Shown: positions 9,478 to 37,599 of the stretch, piece by piece
Layout of the letters: every line of letters starts with the position of its first letter
Position numbering within the stretch: position 1 is the stretch's first letter
Origin: a phage
Reading direction: 5' to 3' (one strand)
Sequence record: PX880099.1
Length of the DNA: 64,000 nucleotides
Program-made: the position numbers and the translations under genes
The notes under the pieces: generated by a model
The model's input: the letters and a program-made list of their open reading frames with translations, nothing else
What the model was told of the DNA's origin: nothing
The model's database searches: none

Positions 9478-10851
9478 ATGGCAACTTTTCGTGAAAAGGT
9501 AGCAACCGTAACTTTACTGTACGGTGCTACATCAATTCGTGAAACCCAGTTCGATATTCCCCTGATCCTTACAGGTCAGAACGTAACTGGCGAAGCGATT
9601 CAATATTACTCTTCTTCCGATGCACTTTTGGAAGCAGGTTATGGATTAAATGATCCAGCGTATATTATGGCAGTCAAACTGTTTAACGGTTTGTTCCCAC
9701 CAGATCAAGTCATGGTTGGTAAGCGTGAAGTTACAAACTTTACTCTAACTCCAATCGTAGAAGATAGTGCAACTTACACAATTACCATCAAAAATGGTAC
9801 CAAGAAAAAAGAATTTAAATTCATTGCTGATGACACTGCAACTGCACAAGAGATTGTAGTTGGTCTGACTGAAATGATCAATGCAGATCTTGTTTATGGC
9901 CCACTGTTTACAGTAGCTAACAACGGCGCTGCAATGACTTTCACTCCAGTAGAAGGTAAGTTTGGTTCTATTGACAGCACAGGTTTCACTCAAGAAACTG
10001 TCTATGCTAATGCTATTACGGAAGATATCGCTGCTCTGCATGATATTGATAGTAGCTGGTTCTGGACCCTTTCAGATTCCCATGAAACAGAAGATGTTCT
10101 AGCTTTGGCTGCATGGGTAGAAGAGAATGATAAAGTTTACTTCTTCTCTAGCTCTGAACCTGGAATTAAAACGAAAGCAGAAGATAACGTTCTGGAACGA
10201 CTGAATGACCTCGGTTATAATAACACTTGCTTTGCTTTGTGGATGACTGATGCAGATTCTGTATTCCCAGAAGCAGCAGTTGTTGGTGCAATCTGTTCTC
10301 GTCAACCTGGTTTAACTACCCTTCACGGTAAAACACTGGTAGGAGTAGAGATCGAGAAACTGGATCAGACTTCGGAAAACAATATTGTTCAACAGAACGG
10401 TAACATCTATCGTAAAGAGCATGGAACTCTGTTCTATCGTGATGGATTGATGGTTAGCGGTTTCTTTGTTGACTATGTTGTTCATGCTTTGTGGTTTAAA
10501 GCTCGCACAGAAGAATCACTGTTTACACTGTTTAAACAACAGTCTATGCTGGGTGGTGGTGTTCGTGCTACTTCAAACGGTCTGGCTTTGATTCGACAAG
10601 CTGTTCTGGCTAACCCGATCCAAGTAGGTATCCTCAACGGTTCCATCGCTAATGAAGTTGTTACTTCTGAAGAGACTGGTTTGCGTGTCGATCTGAAACC
10701 TATTGTTTATATTCCTTCTCGTGCCGATATGACCGATGCGCAAATCAATGCTCGTCTGGTTGATGGGATGAAGATTGAATATGTTTACGCTGGCTTCTTC
10801 CATTACGTTAAAGTTCAGGTCAACGTCCTGACTAACCGTACTGCAAACTAA
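9478..10851 (+). CDS. Tail sheath protein
   Basis: 457 aa; first gene of sheath-tube-chaperone-tape measure series; RBS AGGAG; hairpin follows. Confidence 0.65.
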   Translation: MATFREKVATVTLLYGATSIRETQFDIPLILTGQNVTGEAIQYYSSSDALLEAGYGLNDPAYIMAVKLFNGLFPPDQVMVGKREVTNFTLTPIVEDSATYTITIKNGTKKKEFKFIADDTATAQEIVVGLTEMINADLVYGPLFTVANNGAAMTFTPVEGKFGSIDSTGFTQETVYANAITEDIAALHDIDSSWFWTLSDSHETEDVLALAAWVEENDKVYFFSSSEPGIKTKAEDNVLERLNDLGYNNTCFALWMTDADSVFPEAAVVGAICSRQPGLTTLHGKTLVGVEIEKLDQTSENNIVQQNGNIYRKEHGTLFYRDGLMVSGFFVDYVVHALWFKARTEESLFTLFKQQSMLGGGVRATSNGLALIRQAVLANPIQVGILNGSIANEVVTSEETGLRVDLKPIVYIPSRADMTDAQINARLVDGMKIEYVYAGFFHYVKVQVNVLTNRTAN

Positions 10852-10897: not shown

Positions 10898-11377
10898 ATG
10901 GATAAAATGCTTACTGGCGTAATGGCCTACGACCCATCTCAAGTTATCCTTTCATTAGGTGGTTGGGAACCGTGGGGTTTTGCGGCTGATACTAAAATCG
11001 TTATTGCTAAATCTAACGATATTATCAACCCTTATTCAGGGACTGATGGTGACGTTTCACTAGCTTTGAGTCGTAACCGTTTGGGAACACTCACAATGTC
11101 TTTGCAACGCACATCTCCAGCTAACGAAGTACTTGCAACATATGCACAAACAATGTATTCTACTCGTCAAGTAGCATTCAGCGTTTACTTGGAAGACCCA
11201 CGTGGCTATTACATTAGCACGATTGGATGGATTCAAAGTCAGCCTGAAGATACTATTGGCGAAATGATTACAGAGAACCAATGGGTTATTGGTCTTAAAG
11301 ATGCAAGCCTTCTGCGTAATGAAGTTGGTGTAGGTTTGAGCACCCTTAACTCAATCTCTGCTCTGACAATTCAATAA
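10898..11377 (+). CDS. Tail tube protein
   Basis: 159 aa between sheath and chaperone genes; RBS AAGAGG; strong terminator follows. Confidence 0.6.
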   Translation: MDKMLTGVMAYDPSQVILSLGGWEPWGFAADTKIVIAKSNDIINPYSGTDGDVSLALSRNRLGTLTMSLQRTSPANEVLATYAQTMYSTRQVAFSVYLEDPRGYYISTIGWIQSQPEDTIGEMITENQWVIGLKDASLLRNEVGVGLSTLNSISALTIQ

Positions 11378-11384
11378 TAAATAA

Positions 11385-11405
11385 AGGGCAGAAATGCCCT
11401 TTTTA
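11385..11405 (+). terminator. Rho-independent terminator after tube gene
   Basis: AGGGCA / GAAA loop / TGCCCT followed by TTTTTAT. Confidence 0.7.
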
Positions 11406-11422
11406 TCATTAGAGAGGAAAAT

Positions 11423-11905
11423 ATGTCACAAGAACAAGATAACACAATTCAAAAATATGCTCGACCAGAAGAAGTAGTTGAGATTCCGTTAGATGGAAAC
11501 AGATCTGTTACTTTCCGTATTATGAAGTGGAGTCCATCTAAAGTGTTTGACAGGATTCCAGAATTGGGTAGTGTTCTGGTTGTTCCTATGACTATGTATA
11601 GCACAGCAACAATGTCAGCAGACGAAGACCTTGAGTCACGTATTGCTATGGCACTGATCCAACTTTTTGCGGGTTTGGAAGAAAAGAATTTAACTGTCTT
11701 TTTGCGTAAAATTTTAGATGAGGTTTATACTCAAGACGGTTATAACGTTGCAGAAAATTTTGATGAATTATTTATGGCTCACCCAGAACTAGTGTTAGAT
11801 CTTACTGCTAAAGTTCTGGAGGTAAACTACGGCCCTTTTTTCAAACGAGGTTTCGGAAAACTGTTCACACAGCTTCAGGCGATGACGAGTTTAGCAGCAA
11901 ATTAA
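11423..11905 (+). CDS. Tail assembly chaperone (G-like), zero-frame product
   Basis: 160 aa between tube and tape measure genes; RBS GAGAGG; contains slippery heptamer near its 3' end. Confidence 0.55.
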   Translation: MSQEQDNTIQKYARPEEVVEIPLDGNRSVTFRIMKWSPSKVFDRIPELGSVLVVPMTMYSTATMSADEDLESRIAMALIQLFAGLEEKNLTVFLRKILDEVYTQDGYNVAENFDELFMAHPELVLDLTAKVLEVNYGPFFKRGFGKLFTQLQAMTSLAAN

Positions 11906-12171
11906 CACCTGCGATTGAACATGCTATCGACACAGCAACGAAAACCCTTACTTTGAAGTGGTATGAGGTTATTCTTTGCAAAGTCGTTAAAGATACCTCG
12001 GAAACACTGAAAACATTGGATAACTACGGTGTAGATTATCTTTTAAAACTATATGAGTATTTAACATACGAAGAGTATGTTGAAGCCATGTATGTTAAAG
12101 ACACTTCAATAAAGAGAAAACATCAAAACCAGACAAATAAAATGTCAGATTTGTTTAAGAAACTTGTTTAA
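11423..12171 (+). CDS. Tail assembly chaperone, -1 frameshift-extended isoform (GT-like)
   Basis: Shift at 11836-11842 joins ~140 aa of the zero frame to ~109 aa in the -1 frame ending at 12171; conserved chaperone arrangement upstream of tape measure genes. Confidence 0.45.
11836..11842 (+). promoter_or_regulatory. Putative -1 frameshift slippery heptamer T_TTT_TTC
   Basis: Heptamer in X_XXY_YYZ register of the chaperone frame. The -1 frame is open from 11812 to 12171 with no start codon before TTG 11953 and no RBS there. Confidence 0.5.
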
Positions 12172-12191
12172 TCCAACACGAGGAACATACT

Positions 12192-14180
12192 TTGTTAGAA
12201 ATTAACGCCTCCAAAATTAGTAACGTGGTTACGTTTAAGGTGGACAAGAACAGTCTCAAGGAAGCAAAAGATGCCGTGTTGAGTGTTCAGAAGTTTGCAA
12301 ATAAAATGCAACCCACTATGAACATGACCAAGTTTAGACAACAAATGAAAGAGATTGAGCGTGAACTTAAGAAAGCTCAAACTCAAAGTCAAAAACCTAT
12401 GCGAGCACCTACTCCCGCTGGAGCGGGTGCTCCTGTAGGCGGATCTGGCAGACCTAGAACTCCTAAAACCCCGCAAGGAAGAGAAGAAGAAAAAGCTCGT
12501 AAAGCTGCTGAACGCGAAGCTAAAGCAGCAGCACGTAGGGAAGACTTAGGTAATCTTCGTTTGCAGAACTTTAACTATCGAGCAAGAGCATTTAGTAAAG
12601 CCAGTCCTGGCGCTATGCAAGAAGCTAGAGACGTTATGGGTAAAGCTGTAGAGCAATACAAAAAGGGTGAAATAACTCTTCAACGTATGAACCAAGCTCT
12701 TGCTCACCAGTTGGATGCTTTACGCAGATCTCATCGTGAAAAGAATGCTGAAATAGAAGACGAGGTTCGCGGTCGTCGCCGTATTCGTAGAGAGTTAGAA
12801 GCAGAAGCTAAAATGCGTATACGTATGCGAAATCGTGAACTTAGGGATATAGAACGCAATCGTAAACGTGAATTAGCTCAACAAAGACGTGACCGTGATC
12901 GTCGATATGGACAATTAAAAGAAGGTGCAGCAGGTCTTAATCCACGCATGATTGCATCCTCTTTGATTGGTGCTGGGCTGTTTGCGGGTGGTTCTGTAGT
13001 TGGTAATACGTTGATGAATACTAACGAAAGAATTAAACTTGTAAGCCGTGGTGCTGAAAACGTTCAGACAAACGCCAACGCTATTTTGGCAATGACAGCT
13101 TGGGGTGAACAGAACGGTGTAGACTCTGCAAATATTATTAAGTCAATAGATAATATTAAAGACGTTCGTGAACGTCTTGGTAATACAGTTTTAGCCTCAA
13201 AATGGAATGAGAAAGAAGGGAAGTGGAAAGGCGGCGATAATGGCATAAATGACATTATGAACTTGTTTGGATGGAATCCAGAACAGCTTAAACCTTTACA
13301 GAACGATCCTTTAGCTTTTATTCAGGCTACTGTTAATGAAGGTGAGCGTCGAGGTATGAACTCTGCTCAAATCGGGCGACTTCTTGAAAACCTTGGTGAT
13401 GACCTTATGCACTACCAACGTATGTTTAGTAAAAACGGCGAAGGGTATAATGAAGTATTGAAAATGCTTCAAAGAACAGGTGCAACATTAACTCAAGAAC
13501 AAATAGATGCTTCTAAAGAGTTTACTCGTTTTGCTGCAACAGTTCAGCTTGTAGGTCAAGGTATGCAGAACCATTTCTTAGAGGGTTTTGTGAAAGCCTT
13601 ACCTAAAGATGATTCTTGGTTGGATAACGTTAAAGTGCTAGATCAGTTTGCCAAAGATTTAGGTGAAGAACTTGGTAAGACAACAGTGCAATTAGGAGGT
13701 TTTGCTAAAGAATTGGGAGATGGTTTCGGATCTTTTACCAATTGGCTTAAAGAAACATTCCCAGATACATTCGGAGACAACACAGATCCTAATAAATCTA
13801 TGGCACAAAAAGCATACGAGGCAACGCAAAGTGGAGACAGCAATCCTGTAGCAGATTGGTTGTACAATTTAACAGGTATTGATACACAAGATATTGGTCG
13901 TATGTGGAGAGGAGAACAAACAAGGACACGTGCTTTTGGATTTGGTAATCCTCTTGAAGATTTACGTGAATCAGCCTATACACCTAACGTAAGTTTGGCT
14001 CGTAATCAACCTGTTGTTGAGAATACGGTAGCAATACCAAGTGATCTTATCAAAGTTACGATCAGCCCTTCTTCAGAGTTTGGAAATATTCTTGATGCAA
14101 GAATTCAAAATAGCGGAAATAGCATTTTCCAACGTTTGTCTCTTTCAACTCTAAGTGGACAATCTAACACTGGTGGTTAA
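12192..14180 (+). CDS. Putative tail tape measure protein
   Basis: 662 aa directly after chaperone pair; R/E-rich helical N-terminal region; hydrophobic segment MIASSLIGAGLFAGGSVVG; TTG start with GAGGA RBS. Confidence 0.55.
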   Translation: MLEINASKISNVVTFKVDKNSLKEAKDAVLSVQKFANKMQPTMNMTKFRQQMKEIERELKKAQTQSQKPMRAPTPAGAGAPVGGSGRPRTPKTPQGREEEKARKAAEREAKAAARREDLGNLRLQNFNYRARAFSKASPGAMQEARDVMGKAVEQYKKGEITLQRMNQALAHQLDALRRSHREKNAEIEDEVRGRRRIRRELEAEAKMRIRMRNRELRDIERNRKRELAQQRRDRDRRYGQLKEGAAGLNPRMIASSLIGAGLFAGGSVVGNTLMNTNERIKLVSRGAENVQTNANAILAMTAWGEQNGVDSANIIKSIDNIKDVRERLGNTVLASKWNEKEGKWKGGDNGINDIMNLFGWNPEQLKPLQNDPLAFIQATVNEGERRGMNSAQIGRLLENLGDDLMHYQRMFSKNGEGYNEVLKMLQRTGATLTQEQIDASKEFTRFAATVQLVGQGMQNHFLEGFVKALPKDDSWLDNVKVLDQFAKDLGEELGKTTVQLGGFAKELGDGFGSFTNWLKETFPDTFGDNTDPNKSMAQKAYEATQSGDSNPVADWLYNLTGIDTQDIGRMWRGEQTRTRAFGFGNPLEDLRESAYTPNVSLARNQPVVENTVAIPSDLIKVTISPSSEFGNILDARIQNSGNSIFQRLSLSTLSGQSNTGG

Positions 14181-34923: not shown

Positions 34924-37599
34924 ATGTTTCCAATTCCAATATTTACTATTATGACCAGCACTGGTGTCGTTCCTCTGCCAGCAGGTATTGTTAAAAAAGT
35001 AATCACTTTAGATTACCCAGACAATGCTGGTAATTCTAACAGCAGTTTAGCAATTTTGCTTAATGATGGTAGATTGTTTACTCAAGGCGCAAACCTTTTT
35101 GGTGAGATTGCAGATGGAACTCGTAGTGCACGATTCAATAACTTCCACTTAGCTTCTACTGTAGTAGCGGATGTGTTTACCGCAGATCGTTGTTTTGTTA
35201 TTAAAACTAACAGTGGGGGATGGCAATATTCAGGATTGACAGCAGGATTGGTAGGATCTATAGCAGCAGGTGGTACGGACGCATGTGTAACTACTTGGAC
35301 CAGCTTTCCATCTGTAATAACAGGGACTATCTCTTTAGCCAATCTTAAAGAGGTTAAGGGAGGATATAACAACACTCTCTGGTTAATGAATAGTGGTGTT
35401 CTTTATGGATCAGGTCAAAACACAGTAGGTAGTTTAGGTGCAAGTACTACTAACGAAGTTTCTACTCCTCGTCAGATAACAAGTGCAGCAGTTGCTTTTG
35501 ATGCAGGTTACAACCAATGCTCTTATGTCAACAATGTGGGAACCTTGCGTGTTTGTGGAGCTAGTAAAGGTTTAGCAGGTAATAATAACACAACAACAGC
35601 TTTTGTCAATGCCAAGATATCCGCTACTGAAACAGTGTATGTCAAAGATTACATCAATACAGTTTCCCAGACAATAGTTGTAGGAGATACCTCCGGTGGC
35701 ACGGGTACAGTAAACTACTTATATGTTAGATCTAATACAGAAACAACCTACACTAAACTGGATACCTTTGCAGCAGGTTTCTCAACATGGAAGTTTCCAC
35801 CAAGCCGCCACTCTTTTTTCGTTGGGATCAATAATTCCTTGTGGGCTATTGGTAAGAACTACACTGCAAACTTAGGTTTGGGGTATGATTCTGCGAGCGG
35901 AGATCCACTCCAAGTGGGAAAACCAGTTAAACCTGAAGGAGTGGGTTCTTGGGATATAAACAAGCTCACAAGCGTTCATACGCTGAATATGGATGTTACT
36001 AACCAATTAGGTTATCAAGGAACCTTTTTCGTTTATAATGGAGATATGTATTATTCCGGTATTTGGAAAGATGGGAAAGCCTCGTATCTGTTCAATAGTG
36101 GTCTAAACTATAATAAATTCACACCAATAGCAAGCTCCGTGATTACGGGTGATATTCTGGCAACTGGCTTAACTACAGATTCTTTAGGAATTTGTATTGT
36201 AGGCGGAACTAAACAGTTGACACATTCTGTTAGCCCAGAAGGAGGTAAACTTTTCAATATTAAATACACTTCTTCTGCCCCTGCAAACATGACAATATCA
36301 TCTACTGGTTTAATGACTTTCCATGCAGAAGGTGGTTTTGATGCAGGTATGACAGCCTTAAACGCTGAAGGAACAACTTTATCAGATACCTCTGGAGGAT
36401 ATGCTTCAACATTGAGCGTTTACACTCCTAGCTTATCTGCAATGGATGTAGGAACAACACAAACAATGGTAGCAGAAATAACGCCAACAGGGGCAGCAAG
36501 CTTACCTGGTATGGTTGTTGAGTATTTCTCTAATGACCCTACGGTAGCAACAGTTGACCCCGTTACAGGCGTTATTACAGCAGTTGCTGATGGGGATTGT
36601 CGTATCGGTTGTAGAGCAACTTATCAAGGTGTGGTAACTGCCGAAGATAGTTCTTATCTCGCAGTGAATGCTGTGGTGATTGTGATGGACTATGATTTGA
36701 CGCAAGAAACTATTCCGGCGGATGTAAAGGTCAACAGGAGTAACCGTTATGCCAGGGCTTCTGGAGATATCCTTGTACCTACGGAGAGTTCTGCTCCCGT
36801 AGCACCTTTAGAATATGTTGGTACAACTCCACAAGGTAGACGTGTTGTAGCAGCCAACCGTACACATATCTTTATCAACAACAACTTGACAACAGCTTCC
36901 CCGTGGTTGAAGACGAACTTGACAGTCACGGCATCAACAATCAACTCTCCGGTTGGAACTACGGCTAACACTTACAAGTTAACACCTTCTACAACTTCAG
37001 GACAACATATTTTATCAGCAGTGAATACAGCTTCTGATATTACAGCAGGTAAGCACTGGGCGGCATCCGTATTCTTGAAGCCAGACGGGATCACTAAAGT
37101 GAAACTCAAATTGACTTCAGGAGATGAGATTAACGAAGGGACTTATGATCTTGTAGCTGGAACATTTACAGGTGCAGATGCAAACATAATCGATATGGGG
37201 AATGGTTGGTATCGTGTAATTCTACACAAAGTGACAGTTGCCAAACAAGCATCTATAACCTATGAGATTATAGCTTTGAATGCAAGTGGATCAGACACTT
37301 TCGCAGGAGATGGTACGGCAGGTCTTATTGCTTGGGTTCCACAGCTTGAGATGGGTGATATGACAAATCCAGTTTGGGCGGGGACACCATTTGTTTGTTC
37401 TTATGCACGAGACACTACCAGTGCTGTTACCTTCACTATTCCTAAGAATGGACATACTGGCGTGGACATTTACCACACTGATGGTACTGTGCAACGAGAG
37501 GTCTTCACTGGTACAGCTACAACTTGGATGTTGACGTTCACCGCCGCAAGTGCGGATTGGGGATCGAAGTTCATTACAGGTTTGAAATATTACGACTAA
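34924..37599 (+). CDS. Large tail fibre protein
   Basis: 891 aa; G/T/S/N-rich repetitive sequence; last gene of plus-strand structural block. Confidence 0.5.
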   Translation: MFPIPIFTIMTSTGVVPLPAGIVKKVITLDYPDNAGNSNSSLAILLNDGRLFTQGANLFGEIADGTRSARFNNFHLASTVVADVFTADRCFVIKTNSGGWQYSGLTAGLVGSIAAGGTDACVTTWTSFPSVITGTISLANLKEVKGGYNNTLWLMNSGVLYGSGQNTVGSLGASTTNEVSTPRQITSAAVAFDAGYNQCSYVNNVGTLRVCGASKGLAGNNNTTTAFVNAKISATETVYVKDYINTVSQTIVVGDTSGGTGTVNYLYVRSNTETTYTKLDTFAAGFSTWKFPPSRHSFFVGINNSLWAIGKNYTANLGLGYDSASGDPLQVGKPVKPEGVGSWDINKLTSVHTLNMDVTNQLGYQGTFFVYNGDMYYSGIWKDGKASYLFNSGLNYNKFTPIASSVITGDILATGLTTDSLGICIVGGTKQLTHSVSPEGGKLFNIKYTSSAPANMTISSTGLMTFHAEGGFDAGMTALNAEGTTLSDTSGGYASTLSVYTPSLSAMDVGTTQTMVAEITPTGAASLPGMVVEYFSNDPTVATVDPVTGVITAVADGDCRIGCRATYQGVVTAEDSSYLAVNAVVIVMDYDLTQETIPADVKVNRSNRYARASGDILVPTESSAPVAPLEYVGTTPQGRRVVAANRTHIFINNNLTTASPWLKTNLTVTASTINSPVGTTANTYKLTPSTTSGQHILSAVNTASDITAGKHWAASVFLKPDGITKVKLKLTSGDEINEGTYDLVAGTFTGADANIIDMGNGWYRVILHKVTVAKQASITYEIIALNASGSDTFAGDGTAGLIAWVPQLEMGDMTNPVWAGTPFVCSYARDTTSAVTFTIPKNGHTGVDIYHTDGTVQREVFTGTATTWMLTFTAASADWGSKFITGLKYYD

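What the first reader, a model, noticed from the sequence alone, without database searches (positions are those of the whole stretch)
11812..12171. Conserved-type -1 programmed frameshift in the tail assembly chaperone
The chaperone ORF contains T_TTT_TTC (11836-11842) in the correct X_XXY_YYZ register. The -1 frame is open from 11812 to 12171, contains no start codon until TTG at 11953, and that TTG has no ribosome binding site. The downstream 72-aa ORF is therefore most simply the C-terminal extension of a frameshifted G-T-like fusion of ~249 aa, as seen upstream of tape measure genes in many tailed phages.
Basis: partly seen in the sequence, partly recalled or inferred. Interest (0 to 1): 0.45.

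Follow-up and report, generated by a model that had tools for sequence, protein, structure and literature searches.

The report
Tail chaperone −1 frameshift, unannotated
The phage's tail assembly chaperone gene carries a strictly conserved slippery sequence that very probably makes some ribosomes slip back one base and produce a longer second protein; this trick is well known in tailed phages, but none of the roughly 26 public records checked for this phage group annotates it.

Summary
The window is a Phapecoctavirus (phAPEC8/ESCO5-like myophage). Gene order is sheath, tube, chaperone (11423-11905, Pfam Phage_TAC_15), a −1-frame ORF open 11812-12171, then tape measure (12192-14180).

T_TTT_TTC (11836-11842) sits in X_XXY_YYZ register. 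It is part of a decamer, C_CCT_TTT_TTC (11833-11842), holding two overlapping in-register heptamers. Both give the same 249-aa fusion (…YGPFF|QTRFRK…).

- **Conservation:** every relative examined keeps TTTTTTC in register with an open −1 extension: 13 Stephanstirmvirinae and 7 Vequintavirinae lineages (some only about 26-30% identical), Aeromonas phage phiA019, and 28 IMG/VR loci. The two slip-site Phe codons are 20/20 TTT and 20/20 TTC. Other conserved Phe codons are about 50:50.
- **No independent start:** the downstream ORF has no conserved start codon or Shine-Dalgarno. The stretch before its first start codon still evolves as −1-frame coding sequence.
- **Stimulators:** no conserved 3' RNA structure. 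An SD-like GGAGG lies 13 nt upstream.

No checked GenBank/RefSeq record joins the two ORFs. Mechanistically this is the lambda G/GT and P2 E/E+E' type of frameshift, so it is an ordinary, unannotated new member of a known kind. The fusion protein itself has not been observed.

The parts
10898..11377 (+). Tail tube gene (context, upstream neighbour)
   Evidence: phrog_280 at 3e-35 and a weak PF11681 KPP10_Orf10 match. Annotated as tail tube or virion structural protein in relatives.
11383..11402 (+). Terminator-like hairpin plus T-run between the tube and chaperone genes (context)
   Evidence: Consensus scan: 8-bp stem with 4 GC pairs, followed by a T-rich tail. Relatives' records carry a 'terminator' feature under the match (H17 and H26).
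11423..11905 (+). Chaperone ORF in the zero frame (G-like / TAC-N product, 160 aa), with GAGG Shine-Dalgarno at 11414-11417
11818..11822 (+). Internal Shine-Dalgarno-like GGAGG, candidate 5' stimulator (inferred)
   Evidence: It lies 13 nt before T_TTT_TTC and 10 nt before C_CCT_TTT. A GGAG/GAGG core sits at 13-14 nt in 16 of 20 lineages. The stimulatory spacing for −1 shifts is 9-14 nt (PMC5009743). The Glu codon here is GAG in 17 of 18 lineages, against 5/18 and 11/20 at other conserved Glu columns.
11833..11842 (+). Slippery decamer C_CCT_TTT_TTC, made of two overlapping in-register heptamers (C_CCT_TTT 11833-11839 and T_TTT_TTC 11836-11842)
   Evidence: Sequence and register. T_TTT_TTC is present in all 20 analysed lineages, in Aeromonas phiA019 and in 28 IMG/VR loci. 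Slip-site codons are 20/20 TTT and 20/20 TTC. H_HH.U_UU.Y heptamers are among the most efficient in E. coli (PMC4066793).
11842..11905 (+). Dual-coded overlap: zero-frame tail KRGFGKLFTQLQAMTSLAAN* and −1 frame QTRFRKTVHTASGDDEFSSKL
   Evidence: Variability is suppressed at all three codon positions. The −1-frame motif RF(R) is invariant in all 20 lineages.
11842..12171 (+). −1-frame C-terminal extension (T-like / TAC-C part, 109 aa plus stop). Proposed fusion CDS: join(11423..11842, 11842..12171), 249 aa
   Evidence: Translation. phrog_16039 at 1.2e-44, function unknown. Segment 11905-11952, upstream of any start codon, shows −1-frame coding periodicity: position-3 entropy 1.63 against 0.85 and 0.56. 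The fusion is colinear across two subfamilies.
11953..12171 (+). The '72-aa ORF' as called by ORF finders and some GenBank records (an artefact of ignoring the frameshift)
   Evidence: TTG start with no SD core. Start position and codon are not conserved among relatives. In Ro1 and metagenome lineage P0040 the first start lies 135-144 nt past the zero-frame stop.
12192..14180 (+). Tape measure protein gene (context, downstream neighbour)
   Evidence: phrog_16051, 1249 bits. GAGGA Shine-Dalgarno upstream of the TTG start.

Best explanation

Most ribosomes read 11423-11905 and make the 160-aa chaperone. A minority slip back one base on C_CCU_UUU_UUC (11833-11842). In the slip, tRNA-Phe in the P site and tRNA-Phe in the A site re-pair from UUU-UUC to UUU-UUU. 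One codon earlier, tRNA-Pro and tRNA-Phe could equally re-pair from CCU-UUU to CCC-UUU. These ribosomes continue in the −1 frame to 12171 and make a 249-aa fusion, …YGPFF-QTRFRK….

The so-called 72-aa ORF is the C-terminal part of that fusion, not a gene of its own.

By analogy with lambda gpG/gpGT and P2 E/E+E', the shared N-domain would coat the tape measure protein. The rare C-terminal domain would recruit the tube protein, fixing a short:long ratio at the level of translation.

The shift appears to depend on the heptamer itself, possibly helped by the internal GGAGG 10-13 nt upstream pairing with 16S rRNA. No 3' RNA structure is involved.

- **Shown:** anatomy, register, conservation, lack of an independent start, coding signature.
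- **Inferred:** that slippage occurs, its efficiency, the SD contribution, and the roles of the two products.
For: - **Gene order and family:** sheath, tube, chaperone, −1 ORF, tape measure.
- **Register and unique product:** in-register heptamers, and a single fusion product whichever heptamer is used.
- **Conservation:** TTTTTTC in register with an open −1 extension (82-92 aa past the zero-frame stop in the IMG/VR loci) in 13 Stephanstirmvirinae lineages, 7 Vequintavirinae lineages, Aeromonas phiA019 and 28 IMG/VR loci, with no exception.
- **Frozen synonymous sites:** slip-site Phe codons are 20/20 TTT and 20/20 TTC, while three other invariant or near-invariant Phe columns are 11:9, 9:9 and 10:10. 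The preceding codon always ends in T, whether it is Pro CCT, Cys TGT or Ser AGT.
- **No independent start:** no conserved start or SD for the downstream ORF.
- **Coding periodicity upstream of any start.**
- **Colinear fusion alignment** with invariant NY-x-x-FF / RF motifs.
- **Fold boundary:** the chaperone fold ends at the slip site.
- **Heptamer efficiency:** the heptamer class is experimentally efficient in E. coli (PMC4066793).
- **SD-like element** at the stimulatory distance.
- **Precedent:** the same kind of shift on a poly-T motif has been proposed for related phage families (PMC12846349), and P2 shifts at TTTTTTG without a hairpin (PMC3091744).
Against: - No protein-level evidence for the fusion exists in any record or paper I could find.
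- The protein database holds only models of about 160 aa, and none of about 26 checked GenBank/RefSeq records has a joined CDS.
- No 3' stimulatory structure: window z = −0.25; consensus energies −0.57 and −5.5 kcal/mol; mean z −0.04 over 20 lineages. Efficiency may therefore be low and cannot be estimated.
- The SD-like element is absent from 4 of 20 lineages and partly forced by the Leu-Glu-Val peptide.
- Conservation of Gly/Ala-Pro-Phe-Phe at protein level explains part, though not the synonymous part, of the nucleotide conservation.
Confidence: 0.88

Rival explanations
1. The downstream ORF is an independent small gene. It would be translated from its own start (TTG 11953, or ATT 11914 as in the ESCO13 RefSeq record), perhaps by re-initiation after the chaperone stop. 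The heptamer would be incidental.
For: Several GenBank records annotate it as a separate 72-85 aa hypothetical protein. phrog_16039 models it as a 72-aa family.
Against: - No SD core before TTG 11953 or ATT 11914, while neighbouring genes have one.
- Start codon position and type are not conserved. In Ro1 and metagenome lineage P0040 the first start lies 135-144 nt past the stop, inside the conserved domain.
- The region upstream of the start is conserved as −1-frame protein with coding periodicity.
- This reading does not explain the frozen synonymous sites at the heptamer.
Confidence: 0.04
2. The same fusion is made by transcriptional slippage. RNA polymerase would add one extra U on the T6 run (11836-11841), so ordinary translation of the edited mRNA would give the 249-aa protein.
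For: A homopolymeric T run is present and would give an identical protein. Poly-U and poly-A heptamers are noted as prone to transcriptional slippage (PMC4066793). T-C-rich slippage cassettes are known (PMC5009743).
Against: - The run is always exactly six T in every lineage and never lengthens, although longer runs slip better. That bacterial RNA polymerase slippage needs about 9 or more identical bases is from my own knowledge, not tested here.
- The conserved feature is the codon register and the 3' C of a classical X_XXY_YYZ motif.
- Distant relatives replace the run with G_GGA_AAG, the lambda ribosomal heptamer, which is not a homopolymer.
Confidence: 0.05
3. Chance or non-functional: the heptamer and the open −1 frame are coincidences, and the extension is not made or not needed.
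For: In one genome an in-register heptamer in a 31-codon overlap is expected 0.13 times by chance. No experimental data exist.
Against: The arrangement is conserved without exception in about 49 loci spanning chaperones down to about 26-30% identity. The extension shows protein-level purifying selection.
Confidence: 0.01

Closest known systems
Phage lambda gpG / gpGT tail assembly chaperone −1 frameshift (Levin 1993; Xu 2004, 2013, 2014; summarised in PMC5009743)
   Same: Position between the major tail protein and tape measure genes. A short product and a rare −1 fusion share the N-terminus, and neither is expected in virions. [quoted passage not shown]
   Different: Different heptamer (G_GGA_AAG against C_CCT_TTT_TTC). 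No detectable sequence similarity to lambda G or T was tested or found here. The host virion is contractile-tailed, so the partner would be the tube protein inside a sheath. Ratio and requirement are measured for lambda and unknown here.
Phage P2 E / E+E' frameshift (Christie 2002; described in PMC3091744)
   Same: Also a contractile-tailed phage. −1 shift on a T6-type heptamer (TTTTTTG) between the tube and tape measure genes, with no downstream hairpin.
   Different: The last base of the heptamer differs: the A-site codon is UUG Leu in P2 and UUC Phe here. The products are much smaller (91 and 142 aa against 160 and 249 aa). The Pfam family differs (this one is PF21822). P2 frameshifting is experimentally shown.
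TAC-N / TAC-NC −1 frameshift proposed for Vandenendeviridae (Pakpunavirus Adele) and Andersonviridae, 'GTTTTT' motif (PMC12846349)
   Same: Related myophage lineages with orthologous virion modules. A poly-T motif sits at the 3' end of TAC-N and the downstream 'hypothetical protein' is really the C-terminal domain. The argument is likewise comparative only. Vequintavirinae read G TTT TTT C at the same place.
   Different: That paper does not report the locus for Stephanstirmvirinae. Here the motif is a full X_XXY_YYZ heptamer, extended to a decamer by CCC. The motif in Pseudomonas phage Kremar is only G_GTT_TTT.
E. coli dnaX −1 frameshift (A_AAA_AAG with 5' SD-like element and 3' hairpin; PMC5009743)
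   Same: An internal Shine-Dalgarno-like sequence lies 9-14 nt 5' of the slippery site, in the same host translation system.
   Different: No 3' hairpin here. The SD-like element is not universal among relatives. The outcome is a longer rather than a shorter product.

Membership tests
G/GT-type tail assembly chaperone −1 frameshift (Xu, Hendrix & Duda 2004 definition) | Two ORFs located between the major tail/tube gene and the tape measure gene | tested here: met
   Tube 10898-11377, chaperone 11423-11905, −1 ORF to 12171, tape measure 12192-14180. PHROG and Pfam assignments.
G/GT-type tail assembly chaperone −1 frameshift (Xu, Hendrix & Duda 2004 definition) | Second ORF overlaps the first in the −1 frame and lacks its own initiation signals | tested here: met
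   94-nt overlap. The first start codon, TTG 11953, has no SD core. No start is conserved among 20 lineages.
G/GT-type tail assembly chaperone −1 frameshift (Xu, Hendrix & Duda 2004 definition) | Slippery heptamer X_XXY_YYZ in zero-frame register inside the overlap | tested here: met
   T_TTT_TTC 11836-11842 and C_CCT_TTT 11833-11839. This class is efficient in E. coli (PMC4066793).
G/GT-type tail assembly chaperone −1 frameshift (Xu, Hendrix & Duda 2004 definition) | Arrangement conserved in relatives despite sequence divergence | tested here: met
   About 49 loci without exception. Synonymous sites are frozen at the heptamer only.
G/GT-type tail assembly chaperone −1 frameshift (Xu, Hendrix & Duda 2004 definition) | Fusion protein actually produced at a low fixed ratio and required for tail assembly; products absent from virions | not testable with these tools
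   No proteomic data found. The only hint is that the CB7 record marks sheath and tube 'MS/MS confirmed' but not the chaperone ORFs.
Pfam PF21822 Phage_TAC_15 | Whole-protein score above the curated gathering cut-off | tested here: met
   84.3 bits against a cut-off of 22, E 1.3e-23, residues 29-143 covering profile positions 3-125 of 127.
gpG-like tail assembly chaperone fold (for example HK97 chaperone, PDB 2OB9) | Structural similarity of the N-domain to solved chaperones | tested here: inconclusive
dnaX-type stimulated −1 frameshift | SD-like element 9-14 nt 5' of the heptamer | tested here: met
   GGAGG 11818-11822, spacer 13 nt (10 nt to the upstream heptamer). Found in 16 of 20 lineages. 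Its function is inferred only.
dnaX-type stimulated −1 frameshift | Stable 3' hairpin or pseudoknot 5-9 nt downstream | tested here: not met
   Window z = −0.25. RNAalifold gave −0.57 and −5.5 kcal/mol with no supported downstream helix. Mean z −0.04 over 20 lineages. No Rfam match. Pseudoknots were not explicitly searched.
Programmed transcriptional slippage | Long homopolymer run (about 9 or more bases in bacteria; own knowledge), with length rather than codon register conserved | tested here: not met
   The run is exactly 6 T in all lineages, and register and the 3' C are conserved. A distant relative uses G_GGA_AAG instead.

The most novel reading that the evidence does not exclude
The site may be more than a bare heptamer. 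It would be a composite stimulator-free signal made of three parts:

- two overlapping slippery heptamers (C_CCU_UUU_UUC) that give ribosomes two successive chances to slip;
- a 16S-pairing GGAGG at 10 and 13 nt upstream;
- an invariant GGUUUCG / Arg-Phe-Arg element immediately downstream, acting on the ribosome at the mRNA or nascent-peptide level.

Together these would give an unusually high or tunable short:long chaperone ratio without any RNA structure.
Probability: 0.1. Interest if true: 0.4.

Novelty: new member of a known kind. Interest (0 to 1): 0.22.

Why it matters
- **Annotation:** more than 130 deposited genomes match this locus by DNA, and more than 350 by protein when rV5-like phages are included; many are phage-therapy candidates. 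In the roughly 26 GenBank/RefSeq records I inspected the downstream ORF is either dropped or called a 'hypothetical protein' with arbitrary starts. The correct model is join(11423..11842, 11842..12171).
- **Biology:** the G/GT frameshift paradigm extends to another large clade of contractile-tailed phages. The same T_TTT_TTC codon pair has been held fixed across chaperones that have diverged to about 26-30% identity. This makes a clean natural example of selection on synonymous sites for recoding.

It does not change how tail assembly or frameshifting is understood.

Tried and rejected
- **3' stimulatory structure:** single-sequence folding, RNAalifold on 13 Stephanstirmvirinae and 8 other sequences, and z-scores for 20 lineages. 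Nothing was conserved. The Vequintavirinae 'consensus' helix pairs the U-run itself and is weak.
- **Rfam scan of 11300-12300:** only two sub-threshold chance hits, at the terminator hairpin.
- **Protein database search with the 249-aa fusion:** only models of about 160 aa, so no annotated fusion exists.
- **PDB sequence search:** nothing.
- **Structure of the fusion:** the single-sequence AF2 model was unusable (pLDDT 40).
- **Literature searches** for this frameshift in rV5, phi92, Phapecoctavirus, Vequintavirinae and Stephanstirmvirinae: no report found. The nearest is the Adele paper on neighbouring families.
- **+1 frame:** considered and rejected. It is open for only 7-8 codons around the stop (relatives).
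- **Other −1 heptamers in the overlap:** none in the window.

Full report
**Where the window comes from**

The 1-kb stretch around the finding is 100% identical to Escherichia phage vB_Ec-G1 and ≥99% identical to 65 records of phAPEC8/ESCO5-like phages. These belong to genus Phapecoctavirus, subfamily Stephanstirmvirinae, and are myophages of about 150 kb.

ORF listing and profile searches give the classical contractile-tail order:

| Feature | Coordinates | Evidence |
|---|---|---|
| Sheath | 9478-10851 | phrog_205 |
| Tube | 10898-11377 | phrog_280 |
| Tail assembly chaperone | 11423-11905 | Pfam PF21822 Phage_TAC_15, 84 bits vs cut-off 22; phrog_3840 |
| Small ORF in another frame | to 12171 | phrog_16039, function unknown |
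| Tape measure | 12192-14180 | phrog_16051 |

**Checking the observation**

- The chaperone's zero-frame codons are CCT 11834-36, TTT 11837-39 and TTC 11840-42, so T_TTT_TTC (11836-11842) is in X_XXY_YYZ register.
- The −1 frame is open from 11812 to 12171, overlapping the zero frame by 94 nt.
- The first ATG/GTG/TTG in the −1 frame is TTG 11953.
- That TTG has no GGAG/GAGG/AGGA core in its 20 upstream bases. The tube, chaperone and tape-measure starts all have GAGG(A).
- A −1 shift gives a 249-aa protein with junction …VLEVNYGPFF|QTRFRK….

The site is therefore a decamer, C_CCT_TTT_TTC. A slip at either heptamer gives the same protein, because both following codons are Phe.

Taken alone, the heptamer is only suggestive. 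In-register X_XXY_YYZ motifs occur at 0.0042 per codon in the window's long ORFs. That gives 0.13 expected in the 31-codon overlap, and 0.013 for the efficient H_HH.U_UU.Y class.

**Comparative evidence**

I collected the locus from the following sources:

- phi92, phiWec188, phiWec181, KP2025, phi1_175008, 05F01 and KP13-16;
- five metagenomic relatives at 39-66% protein identity;
- seven Vequintavirinae: rV5, Hena1, Ro1, SSE121, CB7, ChuuTotoro and EspYZU14, whose fusion proteins are 23-29% identical to the window's;
- 28 IMG/VR contigs.

Every one has TTTTTTC in zero-frame register inside the overlap, and a −1 frame that stays open well past the zero-frame stop (82-92 aa past it in the IMG/VR loci). 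Aeromonas phage phiA019 also keeps TTTTTTC at the same place. Rheinheimera phage Barba30A has G_GGA_AAG a few codons later. Pseudomonas phage Kremar has G_GTT_TTT. The shift is thus retained even where the motif changes.

The nucleotide conservation is not simply a by-product of the conserved Pro/Cys-Phe-Phe peptide.

- Across 20 lineages the two slip-site Phe codons are 20/20 TTT and 20/20 TTC.
- Three other invariant or near-invariant Phe columns of the same gene are 11:9, 9:9 and 10:10.
- The preceding codon always ends in T, whether it encodes Pro (CCT), Cys (TGT) or Ser (AGT).

**Is the downstream ORF an independent gene?**

No start codon is conserved. Its position and type (ATG, GTG, TTG) vary between lineages. 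None has a Shine-Dalgarno core. In Ro1 and one metagenomic lineage the first start lies 135-144 nt beyond the chaperone stop, inside the conserved domain.

The conceptual fusion proteins align colinearly across both subfamilies. Shared features are an invariant N-Y-x-x-F-F before the junction, an invariant R-F(-R) just after it, a variable linker (long and Gly/Ser-rich in Vequintavirinae), and a conserved C-terminal domain.

The 16 codons between the chaperone stop and TTG 11953 cannot be reached from any start codon. Even so they show the coding signature in the −1 frame. Their position-3 entropy is 1.63, against 0.85 and 0.56 for positions 1 and 2. This matches the undisputed coding parts. 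The dual-coded overlap, by contrast, is constrained at all three positions.

An AlphaFold2 model of the 160-aa product, built on 22 homologues, has mean pLDDT 73.7. It is confident up to about residue 140, which is exactly the slip site, and below 50 for the zero-frame tail 141-160. The frameshift therefore exchanges a short, apparently disordered tail for a linker plus a second domain, as in lambda G/GT.

**Mechanism**

Sharma et al. (PMC4066793) measured all heptamers in E. coli. They list H_HH.U_UU.Y among the most efficient classes, and this class includes both U_UU.U_UU.C and C_CC.U_UU.U. Both heptamers shift above 0.1% even without a stimulator.

No 3' stimulator is evident:

- The 100 nt from the heptamer fold no better than shuffles (z = −0.25).
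- RNAalifold finds no supported downstream helix in either subfamily.
- The mean z over 20 lineages is −0.04.
- Rfam has no match.

A candidate 5' stimulator does exist. GGAGG at 11818-11822 lies 13 nt before T_TTT_TTC and 10 nt before C_CCT_TTT. This is within the 9-14 nt window in which internal Shine-Dalgarno sequences stimulate −1 shifts (PMC5009743).

A GGAG or GAGG core at 13-14 nt is present in 16 of 20 lineages. The Glu codon that provides it is GAG in 17 of 18 lineages, against 5/18 and 11/20 elsewhere. However, it is absent from KP13-16, Ro1, CB7 and ChuuTotoro and is partly dictated by the Leu-Glu-Val peptide. I rate it plausible, not shown.

The functional reading is by analogy with lambda and P2 (PMC5009743; PMC3091744) and is not tested here. 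In that reading, many copies of the short form plus a few of the long form coat the tape measure, and the extra domain recruits the tube protein.

**Rivals**

- **Independent initiation** of the small ORF is contradicted.
- **Transcriptional slippage on the T6 run** would give the same protein. However, the run is always exactly six T with the codon register and 3' C conserved, and a distant relative substitutes the non-homopolymeric lambda heptamer. I keep this rival at about 5%.
- **Chance** is excluded by the conservation.

**Relation to what is known**

This is the G/GT-type chaperone frameshift, known since lambda and generalised by Xu et al. 2004. Its nearest mechanistic parallel is P2 E/E+E', a −1 shift at TTTTTTG in a myophage with no hairpin.

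A December 2025 paper on Pseudomonas phage Adele (PMC12846349) proposes the same kind of shift on a 'GTTTTT' motif. It does so on comparative grounds, for Vandenendeviridae and Andersonviridae, and notes that these families are related to Vequintavirinae and Stephanstirmvirinae. It does not report the locus for the latter two.

None of the roughly 26 GenBank/RefSeq records I inspected has a joined CDS. The downstream ORF is either omitted, called from TTG, called from ATT, or drawn overlapping. A search of 5.8 billion proteins with the fusion returned only models of about 160 aa. Full-text searches found no report of this frameshift for rV5, phi92, Phapecoctavirus or the two subfamilies.

**Verdict**

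It is a new, unannotated member of a textbook kind.

Its value is mainly as an annotation correction for a large group of therapeutically used coliphages. It is also a clean example of recoding-driven synonymous constraint. Interest is low to moderate (0.22).

What remains unshown is the fusion protein itself, the efficiency, and whether the GGAGG or the invariant GGTTTCG / Arg-Phe-Arg element contributes.

Noticed in passing
window 11383-11402: Terminator-like hairpin (AAAGGGCAGAAATGCCCTTT followed by a T-run) between the tube gene stop and the chaperone start. It could lower chaperone and tape-measure transcription relative to sheath and tube. Some relatives' records annotate a terminator here.
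   Followed up: partly
window 35814-35820 (inside ORF 34924-37599, + strand): A second in-register TTTTTTC heptamer. The −1 frame stops after 4 codons, so a slip would only truncate the 891-aa protein. Probably incidental.
   Followed up: partly
window 11849-11857 and aligned positions in L004-L022: Nucleotides GGTTTCG(G), 6 to 7 nt 3' of the heptamer, and the −1-frame motif Arg-Phe(-Arg) are invariant or nearly so in all 20 lineages. Dual coding with the zero-frame Gly-Phe-Gly/Ala may explain this, but a role in frameshifting cannot be excluded.
   Followed up: partly
L025 (ESCO13 RefSeq) 892-1149; L001, L002, L004-L011: Public records disagree on the downstream ORF. It is absent (ESCO5 RefSeq, SKA64), 72 aa from TTG (vB_Ec-G1), 85 aa from a non-canonical ATT (ESCO13), 75-82 aa (phi92, phiWec), or drawn overlapping the chaperone (rV5 gp050).
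   Followed up: yes
hits H2, H76, H77 and others (MG0656xx 'Campylobacter phage' records): Records labelled Campylobacter jejuni phages are 99.8% identical to this E. coli phage locus. Others match phi92-like or rV5-like phages. The host labels look wrong, or the records are contaminants.
   Followed up: no
L027 1224-1230; L028 about 1213-1219; L026 1242-1248: Distant relatives keep the −1 arrangement but vary the motif. Rheinheimera phage Barba30A has G_GGA_AAG (the lambda heptamer), Pseudomonas phage Kremar has only G_GTT_TTT, and Aeromonas phiA019 has T_TTT_TTC.
   Followed up: partly
fusion alignment, linker after the junction: The linker between the junction and the conserved C-terminal domain is about 15 aa longer and Gly/Ser-rich in Vequintavirinae, and short in Stephanstirmvirinae. 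This suggests a flexible tether whose length is lineage-specific.
   Followed up: no
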